Below, in pieces: positions 37,202 through 40,109 of a stretch of DNA of 64,000 nt (its first letter is position 1; the number at the start of each line of letters is the position of its first letter). This stretch comes from the human T2T-CHM13v2.0 reference genome, Homo sapiens. The stretch lies in the NCBI RefSeq assembly GCF_009914755.1, contig NC_060947.1. One strand, written 5' to 3'. Under the pieces are notes generated by a model. That model saw only the letters and a program-made list of their open reading frames with translations, ran no database searches and had not been told where the DNA came from. The position numbers and the translations under genes were made by a program.

Positions 37202-37809
37202 CTTGAGAGAAGACATCTGATCTTATAGCTTCTTGGTGTTCACCACAATGTCAGGGGAGATGTTGGGGACTTGGGCTTTGCTTCTTGGAGAGCTGCATGA
37301 GATGACTTCAGCAGTACTTCTTCCAGCTCAAGAAACCACACTACTGAAAAAACCTGGATAAACTGAACACACTTTGAGGAGAATAATGAGAAAGATGACT
37401 CAAAACCAAGTTTCAGGATGTGTGGTTGATGACACTGAGGTTATATAATCTGGAGAAGGGATGATCCAGGAGTAATGGGAAAGTTGTTGCTAAGGCATCT
37501 TTTTCATAAAGATTAATAAAGTCATTTTCTAAAGCTGCAAGGGGTAACAGCAGTGCCAGTGAGTGAAGGCCACAGCAAAGCCTATTTCAGCTGGCTGGTG
37601 GGATTCTTTTCTAATAGCAAGAGTCATTCAACAATGGAAGGGGCTTCTTTGAAAGGTGGTGCCTTGCTCTATCCTGGGTGTATTTGTACATAAGCTGGGT
37701 GATCCCATGGCAAGGGTGCTGATGTGAGCATTACCATATGAATGTGTAGACTGACTGGTGACACGTGTGTGTGGGCTCATGCACACAAAAGAACTTTAAC
37801 ATAGTACTG

Positions 37810-38045
37810 ACCTTTTCATTCATTTTTATTGAGATATTGCACATAGTACAAAATTTACCACTTTAAAGTATAACTATTCACTAGTTTTTAGTATATTCAC
37901 AAGGGTGTACAGGTATCACCATCTCCACTATCTAATTCCAGAACATTTCTGTCATCTCAAAAAGAAAGCCATTAGTAATCACCCTCCAATCTTCCCTTAT
38001 CCCAGCCCCTGGCAACCACTAATCTTTCTGTCTCTATGGATTTGG
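37810..38045 (-). mobile_element. L1MB-like 3' end fragment
   Basis: …CCCAGCCCCTGGCAACCACTAATCT…TCTGTCTCTATGGATTTG. Confidence 0.75.
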
Positions 38046-38239
38046 GACTGGTTAATATTTAAGGTAAGGTCCCCTTGAACTTGGAGATTCTCTTGTCTCT
38101 GTAAGGAGGCCCTTGGGATCCACCACCCAAACACAAGGAGGTCATTCCCAAGGACAAAGGAATCTCAGCACACTGGAATCAGTGTTAAACTCAGACCCTC
38201 AAGAAGTTAGAATGCACCGTCTTTAAATCCCACATTCTT

Positions 38240-38559
38240 TTTTTTAAATTTTTTTTTTAAATCTTCATTTGGATTGGTTTATTTTATTATTATTATACTT
38301 TAAGTTTTAGGTTACATGTGCACAATGTGCAGGTTAGTTACATATGTATACATGTGCCATGCTGGTGTGCTGCACCCATTAACTCGTCATTTAGCATTAG
38401 GTATATCTCCTAATGCTATCCCTCCCCCCTCCTCCCACCCCACAACAGTCCCCAGAGTGTGATGTTCACCTTCCTGTGTCCATGTGTTCTCATTGTTCAG
38501 TTCCCATCTATGAGTGAGAATATGCGGTGTTTGGTTCTTTGTTCTTGCGATAGTTTACT
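38240..38559 (-). mobile_element. L1PA2/3-like 3' end (~280 bp) with poly(A) and a short extra tail segment
   Basis: Near-consensus young L1 3' UTR; left TSD copy TAAATCCCACATTCTT at 38224-38239. Confidence 0.95.
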
Positions 38560-38596
38560 CTCCAGTGGTGCAATCGGTTAGCGCGTGGTACTTATA
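38560..38596 (+). pseudogene. tRNA-Ile(UAU) 5' exon retrocopy fused to L1
   Basis: CTCCAGTGGTGCAATCGGTTAGCGCGTGGTACTTATA against tRNA-Ile-TAT GCTCCAGTGGCGCAATCGGTTAGCGCGCGGTACTTATA: 35/37 identical, both differences CpG>TpG. Ends at anticodon+1; right TSD copy at 38595-38610. Confidence 0.9.
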
Positions 38597-38735
38597 AATC
38601 CCACATTCTTATGGCGGCACTGTCTGTTCAAATAATAGTTTTTTTTTTTTTTCGTTCCATATAAACATGCACTGGTGAGCCTGAGACTTAAAGGAAATGC
38701 CATGAAGTCAAAATAGTGAAAACTACATTTTACTT

Positions 38736-39175
38736 TGTCAACCTAAATAACAGAGAGTCTCTCCAAAAGAAAAGATGTTTATTTGTGAACAGGGCATTGC
38801 AATAGAAACACACATGCCATAGTAAACTATACGCCTATTCAGGGAGGTAAAGGAAGACAAAAGTTTTTAAAGGGAAAAATGAGGAGGATGATGTAACTGT
38901 TTTGAAATCATTATCTTTGACTACAAAAATCAATAACAAAGGTGACACCAGTCCGAGTTTGGTCAGGGAGTTGTTTGGCAGATGTCCTTATAGAAGTATT
39001 TTTTCTGTAAGGTTGCGATGACATTTGTGCAAGGTTGTGGTTTTTGCAGCCTTTTGTGATAGTTTTTGTTATCAGACCTACAAGCATGTGAACCATCTCC
39101 ATGGTTTTCCCTGGCTCTGTTTGCCAGGATTTTCTTAACACTAGTCACCCCCACTTCATTCTCACAACTTTCACA
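38736..39175 (-). mobile_element. MER65-like ERV1 solo LTR
   Basis: Reverse complement starts TGTGAAAGTTGTGAGAAT and ends TTATTTAGGTTGACA. Confidence 0.75.
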
Positions 39176-40109
39176 AATTGCAGCCTCGTTTGTGTGTGCA
39201 ATAAGCCTTCATTTCTATTCTTTTTTGAATATTTTACAGATGGGGTACAGTTGCTCTCTAGGGTTTTTTCTTTTATTTCTTTTCTTCATTAGTAACTTGT
39301 GATTCTGAAAAGAGGAAGTAGGAAATTACAACATTGTTTGTGCTAAAACTTGACATAGCATGATTAGAAAAACTGTCCTTGGGCACAATTGTGATGAAGA
39401 CATGAGTGGGTTCTCTCTTGTTTCATCAGGACAGCTGGTAAACTCCCACACTTGTGCTTCTAGCCTTTCTTTTGGCGGGGCATGAAAAGCTCAGCTACAA
39501 TAAATCATCGTCTAGCCTAAGACATTTATGAATAGATATGTTTTATGAGAGTAGCACATTCAGGATCTGATGAAGACATCTGCTTTTTATTCTCAGTGTG
39601 TCACATCTGGGTTAACTACTTTGCAAAAGTGTAGAAATGTTATCATTAAAAATGAATTTGGGTTCAATTGTGGCAAGAGCCACAGCTGAAAACAATGACG
39701 GGTTGACAGTTGCCTGAGAAAGCTAGGGCTTTTATTTATTTATTTTAAAGCTATGGCTAGGAGAGGGCTTAGGGACCAAAGGAAAATACTCTACAGTGAG
39801 ACTTGAACACTTTACTTAACTGTGATCCTGCTCCCGGGTCTGCTCAGGGCACTTTATAGGTATTTTGAGTCAGGGGGAAGTTCACATGCTGTCAATGTGT
39901 AAGGAAGGCTCTCTTTGATGAAATACAGTGTGGTGTTGACTTGATGAGCCCACTGTTTTTTCTTAAGGAAATACCTTTGTATTGACTGCATTTGAGGACA
40001 AGTAGTGACTCATAAACCTGGAGCAATATGAGGATCTAATAAAATCAACCCCTTTACCTCATACATTCCTAGTGGATGCTCCACAAGAGTTCTGGGGCTA
40101 CTCAGGGCA

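What the first reader, a model, noticed from the sequence alone, without database searches (positions are those of the whole stretch)
38224..38610. Single insertion made of an L1 3' end and an inverted tRNA-Ile(UAU) 5' exon
Seen directly: one 16-bp TSD (TAAATCCCACATTCTT) encloses a minus-strand young L1 3' end and a plus-strand 37-nt tRNA-Ile-TAT piece, joined 5' end to 5' end. The last bases of the tRNA (TA) overlap the TSD. Established: tRNA-Ile(UAU) carries an intron and TSEN cuts after anticodon+1, exactly where this copy ends. U6-L1 chimeras are in the same orientation, tailless tRNA retrocopies are primed by microhomology, and twin priming normally uses the same L1 RNA. Inference: twin priming in trans, where the second DNA end primed on a different RNA (a tRNA splicing intermediate or 5' half). 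That would be a fossil of tRNA fragments present in the germline L1 particle, and may be an under-described chimera class.
Basis: partly seen in the sequence, partly recalled or inferred. Interest (0 to 1): 0.85.

Follow-up and report, generated by a model that had tools for sequence, protein, structure and literature searches.

The report
Known L1 plus inverted tRNA-half insertion
This is one old L1 insertion that also carries a back-to-front copy of the first half of a tRNA-Ile gene transcript; the structure is real, but this kind of chimera, and this very locus, are already in print.

Summary
One exact 16-bp target-site duplication (38224-38239 and 38595-38610) encloses a minus-strand L1 3' end (38278-38559) and a plus-strand tRNA-Ile(UAU) piece, nt 2-37 (38560-38596), joined 5' end to 5' end. 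A diverged paralog on the same chromosome has the empty site, with one TSD copy and neither part.

A second reverse transcription primed from the other DNA end on a tRNA transcript (twin priming in trans) is the best explanation. It is not new:
- Doucet 2015 proposed it for inverted snRNA/L1 chimeras.
- Law and Burns (bioRxiv 2025, Cell Genomics 2026) describe 21 tRNA/LINE-1 chimeras, mostly antisense 5' halves.
- Their table lists chrX:7986658-7986973, L1PA3 plus tRNA-Ile-ATA:2-39, which fits this locus.

The splicing-intermediate idea is not supported:
- The end point is hidden by 2-3 nt of microhomology.
- 15 of 15 truncated copies of intronless tRNA-Ile(AAU) also end in the anticodon loop.
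- All 10 stand-alone tRNA-Ile(UAU) half copies carry a gene-specific 5' leader, and 6 match 2-17 nt into the same gene's intron.
- At least 3, and probably 7, of 10 tRNA-Tyr copies carry intron sequence.

These results point to internal priming on unspliced pre-tRNA, as Schmitz and Noll proposed.

One extra feature: 19 non-L1 bases between the L1 end and the poly(A) match a unique chr9 site.

The parts
38224..38239 (.). Left copy of the 16-bp target-site duplication, TAAATCCCACATTCTT
   Evidence: It is present once at the empty paralogous site G000:C23:8326518-8326533.
38240..38258 (-). Poly(A) tail of the insertion, read as T on the + strand. In the L1 sense it is A10 TTT A6.
   Evidence: Read directly. 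It abuts the T-rich 3' end of the left TSD copy (TTCTT), which is the primer for first-strand synthesis.
38259..38277 (-). 19 non-L1 bases between the L1 3' end and the poly(A). They are a short 3' transduction or a template-switch tag.
   Evidence: Absent from 11 of 11 aligned L1 3' ends. There is an exact match, extended by the 8 preceding bases AAAATAAA, at one unique site, G000:C9:85022646-85022664 on the minus strand. That site is single-copy.
38278..38559 (-). 5'-truncated L1 3' end, about 280 bp. The published RepeatMasker-based table calls it L1PA3.
   Evidence: 96-97% identity to most of the best genomic L1 3' ends. Law and Burns, mmc3 sheet 7, last row.
38560..38596 (+). tRNA-Ile(UAU) nt 2-37, that is the 5' exon without G1, antiparallel to the L1
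   Evidence: 35 of 37 matches to the 5' exon shared by the five genes. Both differences are CpG to TpG.
38595..38610 (.). Right copy of the TSD. Its first two bases, TA, are also tRNA nt 36-37.

Best explanation
This is a single L1-mediated insertion made by two reverse transcriptions at one staggered break.

1. On the + strand, the nick after ...CATTCTT gave a T-rich 3' end. It primed on the poly(A) of an L1 RNA of L1PA3 type, which carried a 19-nt non-L1 tag. About 280 nt were copied.
2. On the - strand, 16 bp away, the 3' end ...GGGATTTA annealed through 2-3 bases to the UA(A) of the anticodon loop of a tRNA-Ile(UAU) transcript. It was extended to the 5' end of that RNA.
3. The two cDNA ends were joined bluntly. 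G1 and any leader were lost, and fill-in produced the 16-bp TSD.

Shown: the anatomy, the TSD, the empty site and the microhomology.

Inferred: the order of steps and the identity of the second template. I consider that template most likely an uncut nuclear pre-tRNA or a mature tRNA primed internally in its A/U-rich loop (about 0.55 of the total). It is less likely a pre-cut 5' half (about 0.2) or a TSEN 5' exon (about 0.1).

The insert has no B box and no 3' half, so it is an inert fossil.
For: - One exact 16-bp TSD encloses both parts, and neither part has a TSD of its own.
- A paralog aligns over 640 bp (88.9%) on the left and 714 bp (94.1%) on the right. It has one TSD copy and lacks window 38240-38594 entirely.
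- Both nick sites look like L1 endonuclease sites. Read in the tRNA sense the site is TT/TAAA, a motif scored 'Yes' in the published table. Read in the L1 sense it is AT/AAGA.
- The tRNA copy runs from the loop to nt 2 at the joint, as expected if a cDNA was extended to the RNA's 5' end.
- At class level, 16 of 21 published tRNA/L1 chimeras are antisense, and 12 of 21 end at nt 35-39. The authors propose twin priming, and this locus is row 21.
- Doucet 2015 gives the same model for inverted U5/U1-L1 chimeras, with loop truncations and target complementarity.
- Kojima 2010 reports that the microhomology profile at the 3' junction of tailless tRNA copies resembles that at the 5' junction of inverted L1.

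Evidence on the template:
- All 10 stand-alone tRNA-Ile(UAU) half copies have G1 plus at least 3 leader bases of one particular gene.
- 6 of the 10 match 2-17 bases into the same gene's intron.
- None of the 10 continue into the 3' exon.
- At least 3, and probably 7, of 10 tRNA-Tyr copies carry intron sequence after G37.
- 15 of 15 truncated copies of intronless tRNA-Ile(AAU) end at nt 33-39.
Against: - No outgroup genome could be examined. The paralog shows only that both parts arrived after the duplication, not that they arrived together.
- The published catalogue found this locus by proximity only (found_by_msa_prediction = 0) and did not analyse its TSD.
- The L1/tRNA joint has no microhomology. 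Twin priming allows this, but end joining of a captured cDNA fits it equally well.
- Two of the 10 stand-alone tRNA-Ile(UAU) copies (L007, L071) have an Alu beside them with a third copy of the same TSD. Re-use of such sites by a later insertion therefore does happen.
- Nothing at this locus itself tells which form of the tRNA was the template.
- My surveys required nt 2-32 (nt 1-32 for tRNA-Tyr) to be present with at most 3 mismatches, so older copies and copies truncated earlier were not sampled.
Confidence: 0.8

Rival explanations
1. One reading: the second template was the 5' exon of pre-tRNA-Ile(UAU) released by the TSEN splicing endonuclease, primed at its very 3' end.
For: - In all five genes the shared 5' exon stops at the A after the anticodon, and the sequences diverge from there. 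The window copy has no base that must come from beyond it.
- Two stand-alone copies (L070, L071) show no intron match after nt 37.
- 4 of the 21 published chimeras come from intron-bearing tRNA families.
Against: - The end is ambiguous between nt 35 and nt 38, because TA(A) is shared with the target.
- Intronless tRNA-Ile(AAU) copies end in the same loop in 15 of 15 cases, including an antisense L1 chimera (L099).
- 8 of the 12 published chimeras that end at nt 35-39 are from intronless tRNAs.
- 6 of 10 stand-alone tRNA-Ile(UAU) copies pair across the 5' splice site into the intron, and one carries 17 intron bases.
- tRNA-Tyr copies end at varied places inside the intron.
Confidence: 0.1
2. 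The version of Law and Burns: the template was a pre-cut 5' tRNA half made by a stress or turnover RNase (angiogenin, RNase T2, RNase L), then copied by twin priming.
For: The authors argue this from the half length of the pieces. The end in the anticodon loop fits such cuts.
Against: - Stand-alone tRNA-Ile(UAU) and tRNA-Tyr copies carry 5' leaders and intron bases. They are therefore nuclear primary transcripts, not halves of mature tRNA.
- Noll 2015 argues for internal priming over pre-cut RNAs for tailless copies (passages seen).
Confidence: 0.2
3. Two separate events: a tailless tRNA-Ile(UAU) retrocopy with the 16-bp TSD came first. Later an L1 inserted, without a TSD of its own, exactly between the left TSD copy and the tRNA 5' end, removing G1 and the leader.
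For: - The left TSD copy ends in TTCTT, a usable endonuclease site.
- G1 and the leader are missing here but present in all 10 stand-alone copies.
- L007 and L071 show that a later Alu can land right at such a site.
- The catalogue gives no timing evidence for this locus.
Against: - It needs an L1 insertion within a base or two of one given point, with no TSD.
- In L007 and L071 the second element does have its own TSD copy.
- 18 of the 21 catalogued chimeras were supported by alignment-based timing as arriving together.
Confidence: 0.06
4. Capture of a free tRNA cDNA, or filler, by end joining at the L1 5' junction, without priming from the target.
For: The L1/tRNA joint is blunt and lacks microhomology.
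Against: - The other end of the piece shares 2-3 bases with the target, right at the TSD border.
- The piece runs to the tRNA 5' end.
- The class is biased to the antisense orientation, 16 of 21.
Confidence: 0.05

Closest known systems
Antisense tRNA-half/LINE-1 chimeric insertions (Law and Burns, bioRxiv 2025; Cell Genomics 2026, PMC13174262)
   Same: Same build: a 5' half of a tRNA (about nt 1-37), antisense to a 5'-truncated L1, inside one TSD, with twin priming proposed. Their table S sheet 'tRNA', last row, reads chrX:7986658-7986935(-) L1PA3 plus chrX:7986936-7986973(+) tRNA-Ile-ATA:2-39. The strand, the lengths (278 and 38 bp) and the order fit this locus. It is also the only tRNA-Ile(UAU) fragment found on this chromosome.
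   Different: Nothing differs in kind. For this row they give no TSD and no timing. They attribute the pieces to RNase-made tRNA halves. In the passages searched they do not mention TSEN, pre-tRNA or tRNA introns (0 occurrences each).
Inverted snRNA/L1 chimeras formed by twin priming (Doucet et al. 2015, PMC4476161)
   Same: A 3'-truncated small RNA in inverse orientation to the L1 within one TSD. The truncation lies in a single-stranded loop, and the RNA is complementary to the insertion site (passages).
   Different: The second RNA there is U5, U1 or another snRNA, not a tRNA.
Tailless tRNA retropseudogenes (Schmitz et al. 2004, not held here; Noll et al. 2015, PMC5322556)
   Same: A 3'-truncated tRNA copy with no A tail, ending in a loop, with target complementarity. 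Unprocessed pre-tRNAs serve as templates (passages). The 10 stand-alone tRNA-Ile(UAU) copies found here are of this kind.
   Different: Those copies stand alone between their TSDs. Here the tRNA copy shares its TSD with an L1.
Classical twin-priming L1 inversions (Ostertag and Kazazian 2001, cited through)
   Same: Two primings at one staggered break, an inverted 5' segment, and microhomology at the outer 5' junction.
   Different: There both cDNAs come from the same L1 RNA. Here the second template is a different RNA.
U6/L1 chimeras (template switch, or RtcB ligation: Moldovan et al. 2019, PMC6789731)
   Same: A small nuclear RNA fused to the 5' end of a truncated L1 inside one TSD.
   Different: U6 is full length and in the same orientation as the L1. 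That cannot give the antiparallel arrangement seen here.

Membership tests
L1-mediated (target-primed) insertion | Target-site duplication of about 7-20 bp flanking the whole insert | tested here: met
   16 of 16 identical bases at 38224-38239 and 38595-38610
L1-mediated (target-primed) insertion | Poly(A) tail at the 3' end and an endonuclease-like nick site | tested here: met
   The tail is at 38240-38258. The nick read in the L1 sense is AT/AAGA, two bases off TT/AAAA. The nick on the other strand is TT/TAAA (motif scoring as).
L1-mediated (target-primed) insertion | Empty site with a single TSD copy | tested here: met
   The paralog G000:C23:8326518-8326533 has a single TSD copy and lacks the insert. 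This is a paralog, not an outgroup ortholog.
Antisense tRNA/LINE-1 chimera (twin priming in trans) | A non-L1 RNA copy at the L1 5' end, inside the same TSD and antiparallel to the L1 | tested here: met
Antisense tRNA/LINE-1 chimera (twin priming in trans) | The RNA copy reaches its 5' end at the inner joint, and ends in a single-stranded loop with target microhomology at the outer joint | tested here: met
   The copy starts at nt 2 at the joint. It ends in the anticodon loop with TA or TAA shared with the target.
Antisense tRNA/LINE-1 chimera (twin priming in trans) | Both parts arrived at the same time | tested here: inconclusive
   The paralog lacks both parts. No primate orthologs are available, and the catalogue has msa = 0 for this row.
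Copy of a TSEN-cut tRNA 5' exon | Ends exactly at nt 37 with no base from the intron or from nt 38 | tested here: inconclusive
   The end is masked by the TA(A) shared with the TSD.
Copy of a TSEN-cut tRNA 5' exon | The nt-37 end point is specific to intron-bearing tRNAs, and their copies are free of intron bases | tested here: not met
   15 of 15 truncated copies of intronless tRNA-Ile(AAU) end at nt 33-39. 6 of 10 tRNA-Ile(UAU) copies match 2-17 intron bases. 7 of 10 tRNA-Tyr copies have 5-18 further bases after G37, checked against a source-gene intron in 3.
U6/L1-type sense chimera | The small RNA lies in the same orientation as the L1 | tested here: not met
   The tRNA piece is on the + strand and the L1 on the - strand.
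Functional tRNA gene | A complete cloverleaf with both internal promoter boxes | tested here: not met
   ARAGORN finds 0 genes in 37500-39500. Rfam gives no tRNA match at E up to 10. Only nt 2-37 are present.

The most novel reading that the evidence does not exclude
tRNA-splicing intermediates enter L1 insertions by two routes.

1. At this locus, a TSEN-released 5' exon of pre-tRNA-Ile(UAU) was copied by twin priming.
2. In the published table, the three sense-oriented half-tRNA/L1 chimeras are tRNA-Tyr, tRNA-Tyr and tRNA-Arg(UCU). All three are from intron-bearing families (family assignment recalled), ending at nt 35-38. They could be 5' exons, which carry a 2',3'-cyclic phosphate, ligated by RtcB to L1 RNA in the way U6 is.

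Among the 12 chimeras ending at nt 35-39, 3 of 3 sense pieces come from intron-bearing families, against 1 of 9 antisense pieces (my count). This is post hoc, rests on small numbers, and has an exact one-sided p of about 0.02.

Evidence against: the one sense tRNA-Tyr chimera I could read (L083) carries a 5-nt leader and may end at nt 35. The family surveys also favour uncut pre-tRNA.
Probability: 0.1. Interest if true: 0.55.

Novelty: already known. Interest (0 to 1): 0.2.

Why it matters
The gain is modest. The locus is a clean fossil showing that an L1 complex at its target can copy a second, unrelated nuclear RNA from the other DNA end.

- its exact TSD,
- an empty paralogous site,
- a 19-nt tag pointing to a chr9 source.

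The small surveys also bear on a point the catalogue leaves open. For intron-bearing tRNAs, the templates of stand-alone half copies were leader- and intron-bearing pre-tRNAs primed internally. They were not RNase-made halves or spliced-out exons. If that holds generally, the 'tRNA half' reading of these chimeras needs revision.

Tried and rejected
- **Microhomology at the L1/tRNA joint.** I first expected a 3-nt overlap there. Alignment with 11 L1 copies shows the joint is blunt and G1 is missing, so I dropped the idea.
- **tRNA detectors.** ARAGORN and Rfam at E up to 10 do not see the half tRNA. The four weak Rfam rows are chance matches to unrelated bacterial or protist families.
- **The chr9 site.** I looked for a coding exon upstream of the 19-mer match (36 open frames listed). 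By eye I saw nothing that looked like a coding exon, and no family search was run. Whether the site is a transcript 3' end remains open.
- **Other 19-mer matches.** The four one-mismatch matches of the 19-mer (L021-L024) share no flanks with the window and are taken as chance. The reversed control gave 1.
- **RtcB ligation for this locus.** Rejected, because the piece is antiparallel to the L1.
- **tRNA as primer of the L1 cDNA.** Rejected, because the tRNA would then sit at the poly(T) end.
- **L083 end point.** I tried to settle where the sense tRNA-Tyr/L1 chimera ends. It stays ambiguous between nt 35 and nt 37 with one mismatch.
- **Rfam tRNA family search of the genome.** One search returned only intronless genes. 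The tRNA-Tyr genes came from the chr14 cluster instead.
- **Missing gene sequences.** As a result, 4 of the 7 tRNA-Tyr copies with extra bases after G37 were not compared with their source introns.
- **Literature not available.** Schmitz et al. 2004 is not held and is cited only through Noll, Kojima and Doucet.

Full report
**What is in the sequence**

- TAAATCCCACATTCTT occurs at 38224-38239 and at 38595-38610, 16 of 16 identical. It is the only direct-repeat family in that stretch.
- After the left copy comes a poly(T) run interrupted by AAA (38240-38258).
- Then come 19 bases that are not L1 (38259-38277).
- Then comes the antisense 3' end of an L1 up to 38559.
- From 38560 to 38596 the + strand reads nt 2-37 of tRNA-Ile(UAU).

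The genome that holds the window has five intron-bearing tRNA-Ile(tat) genes, found by ARAGORN in 5 of the 8 loci scanned. All five share one 5' exon, and the window copy differs from it at two CpG sites only. The 37-mer has 10 genomic matches at 3 or fewer mismatches, and its reversed control has none. The last two tRNA bases lie inside the right TSD copy. ARAGORN and Rfam do not call a tRNA here, as expected for half a molecule.

**The L1 part and the joint**

A search with the L1 stretch scored 40 of 1521 first-look candidates. Most of the best copies are 96-97% identical over about 280 bp. Aligning 11 of them shows three things.
1. The L1 is complete at its 3' end and truncated at window 38559.
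2. The L1/tRNA joint is blunt. Other L1 copies continue with bases not seen in the window, the tRNA starts at C2, and there is no shared base.
3. The 19 bases before the poly(A) are absent from all 11 copies.

The published table calls the element L1PA3.

**Empty site**

No primate genomes are available, but the left flank has a paralog on the same chromosome. The paralog aligns with window 37600-38239 (88.9% over 646 columns) and with 38595-39300 (94.1% over 714 columns). The two alignments overlap by exactly the 16 TSD bases, so the paralog holds one TSD copy, no L1 and no tRNA piece. This fixes the pre-insertion sequence. It shows that the TA shared with the tRNA belongs to the target. It also shows that both parts came after the duplication. 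It does not prove that they came together.

**Mechanism**

The arrangement is what twin priming predicts when the second template is another RNA.
- The + strand end ...TTCTT primed on the poly(A).
- The - strand end, 16 bp away, can pair through TA, or through TAA if the template had an A after nt 37, with the anticodon loop. It was extended to the tRNA 5' end.
- The two cDNA ends were then joined.

Read in each insert's own sense, the two nicks are AT/AAGA (L1) and TT/TAAA (tRNA). The published table scores the second motif as an endonuclease site. Either nick could therefore have been the first. Other routes fail:
- A template switch or RNA ligation gives the same orientation, not the opposite one.
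- A tRNA used as primer would sit at the poly(T) end.
- Two independent insertions would need a TSD-less L1 landing within a base or two of one given point.

I keep the two-event reading at about 6%. Two stand-alone tRNA-Ile(UAU) copies (L007, L071) have an Alu next to them with a third copy of the same TSD, so such sites are re-used.

**What is already in print**

- Doucet et al. 2015 (passages) describe 3'-truncated U5 and U1 copies in inverse orientation to an L1 inside one TSD. The truncations are in loops, the copies are complementary to the target, and the authors name twin priming.
- Law and Burns (bioRxiv 2025: outline and passages; Cell Genomics 2026: passages and supplement) report 21 tRNA/LINE-1 chimeras. 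These are 'typically half the length', 'predominantly antisense', with the region 1-37 highlighted and twin priming proposed.
- In their table (mmc3, sheet tRNA) I count 16 of 21 antisense, 12 of 21 ending at nt 35-39, and 18 of 21 supported by alignment-based timing.
- The last row is chrX:7986658-7986935(-) L1PA3 with chrX:7986936-7986973(+) tRNA-Ile-ATA:2-39, found by proximity only and with no TSD given.

That row matches this locus in strand, order and lengths (278 and 38 bp). The window holds the only tRNA-Ile(UAU) fragment found on this chromosome. I could not run a liftover, and the implied offset between assemblies is about 446 kb. The class and the locus are therefore known.

**The splicing-intermediate idea**

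The Cell Genomics text does not mention TSEN, pre-tRNA or tRNA introns (0 occurrences each), so I tested the idea in four ways.

1. *End point at this locus.* It is not determinable, because TA lies in the TSD. The next base, A, fits mature A38 or the first intron base of one gene.

2. *Other tRNA-Ile(UAU) copies.* Two pattern searches (controls 0) give 10 further non-gene copies of the 5' exon. In one search:
   - All 10 have G1 preceded by at least 3 bases identical to the leader of one particular gene: six to the gene in L006, two to L003, one to L008 and one to L004.
   - None of the 10 continue into the 3' exon.
   - One (L002) carries 17 bases of the L008 intron.
   - Five more share 2-5 bases with the intron of the same gene, inside their TSD. 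The primer therefore paired across an uncut 5' splice site.
   - Four show 0-1 such bases and say nothing either way.

3. *tRNA-Tyr.* The exon pattern has 26 matches. I fetched 10.
   - None of the 10 run into the 3' exon.
   - Seven have 5-18 further bases after G37.
   - In L084 these are the first 5 intron bases of the chr14 gene whose 6-nt leader it carries.
   - L085 and L089 carry 5-6 leader bases of another chr14 gene and resemble that gene's intron with mismatches.
   - The other four were not compared with their source genes.

4. *Intronless control, tRNA-Ile(AAU).* The pattern has 37 matches. I fetched 20, leaving out 15 in gene clusters and 2 duplicates on C17.
   - Three are full-length with terminators, one is a longer copy, and two are the same duplicated locus.
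   - That leaves 15 distinct truncated copies, all of which lose similarity at nt 33-39.
   - One of them (L099) abuts antisense L1. It appears to correspond to the published row tRNA-Ile-ATT:8-39/L1PA3, on the same chromosome at a nearby coordinate, but this was not checked by liftover.

An end in the anticodon loop is thus general. Noll et al. 2015 (passages) state the same for tailless copies: truncation in loops, 2-18 nt of target complementarity, 'processed or unprocessed' tRNAs, and a case for internal priming. Kojima 2010 (passages) found the microhomology profile of tailless tRNA copies to be like that of the outer junction of inverted L1.

My surveys have limits. They need nt 2-32 (nt 1-32 for tRNA-Tyr) with at most 3 mismatches, and the classification of TSDs and ends was partly by eye.

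**The 19-base tag**

The 19-mer has two exact matches in the genome: the window, and G000:C9:85022646-85022664 on the minus strand. There the preceding 8 bases (AAAATAAA) also equal the last 8 bases of the L1, giving 27 matching bases. The chr9 stretch is single-copy and has no L1 beside it. The tag starts right after an AATAAA signal and is 19 nt long, which is the usual distance to a cleavage site. Two readings fit:
- A short 3' transduction from a source L1 that once sat at that chr9 site, having been primed on its own terminal AAAATAAA, and that is absent from this assembly.
- Reverse transcription that began on a polyadenylated chr9 transcript and switched to the L1 RNA at the 8-nt homology.

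I cannot tell them apart. I saw no obvious coding exon in the 1.5 kb upstream (by eye).

**Verdict**

The special twist is not supported, and the class, including this locus, is published. What remains open and mildly interesting is which form of tRNA feeds these events. Also of note, the three sense-oriented half-tRNA chimeras of the published table are tRNA-Tyr, tRNA-Tyr and tRNA-Arg(UCU). All three are intron-bearing families, an assignment I give from recall rather than from a call.

Noticed in passing
window 38259-38277 (-); G000:C9:85022646-85022664 (L019): 19 non-L1 bases between the L1 3' end and the poly(A) match a unique chr9 site. With the 8 bases before them, 27 bases match, and the tag starts just after an AATAAA. 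It is either a short 3' transduction from a source L1 absent from this assembly, or a template switch from a chr9 transcript.
   Followed up: partly
G000:C23:8325018-8328356 (L012), against window 37600-39300: An inverted paralog lies about 786 kb away on the same chromosome. The flanks differ in identity: 88.9% left of the insertion site and 94.1% right of it. This may reflect gene conversion or a composite duplication.
   Followed up: no
L007 1476-1880; L071 (minus strand) about 555-290: Two stand-alone tRNA-Ile(UAU) half copies are each followed by an Alu, with a third copy of the same target sequence after the Alu tail (TSD, tRNA half, TSD, Alu, TSD). Either the same nick site was used twice or the events were coupled.
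   Followed up: partly
L067 and L068 (tRNA nt 35): Two independent tailless copies, with leaders of two different genes (L006 and L003), both read TTCTA instead of TTATA in the anticodon. This is the same A to C change, two bases from the priming end. It could be a misincorporation early in reverse transcription or next to modified bases.
   Followed up: no
L006 gene (G000:C6:28408983 onward): 6 of the 10 stand-alone tRNA-Ile(UAU) copies carry the leader of this one gene (3-5 bases ending in GTG). It seems to have been the main germline source.
   Followed up: partly
Law and Burns, mmc3.xlsx, sheet tRNA: The three sense-oriented half-length pieces are tRNA-Tyr, tRNA-Tyr and tRNA-Arg-AGA. Of the 16 antisense pieces, only this locus is from an intron-bearing family. 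Also, in some rows the TSD columns appear shifted by one row. For example, the chr5:86372886 row lists TSD coordinates on chr6, and the chrX:107695404 row lists chrX:65017944.
   Followed up: partly
L083 (G000:C11:131778852-131779283): This is a sense-oriented tRNA-Tyr/L1 chimera. It carries 5 leader bases of the chr14 gene in L079. It ends at nt 35, or at nt 37 with one mismatch, before the L1 ORF2 sequence.
   Followed up: partly
L099 (G000:C11:91925763-91925934): An intronless tRNA-Ile(AAU) piece is joined to antisense L1 at the same L1 region as in the window. It ends at nt 38-39. It has the same build as the finding and serves as a natural control.
   Followed up: partly
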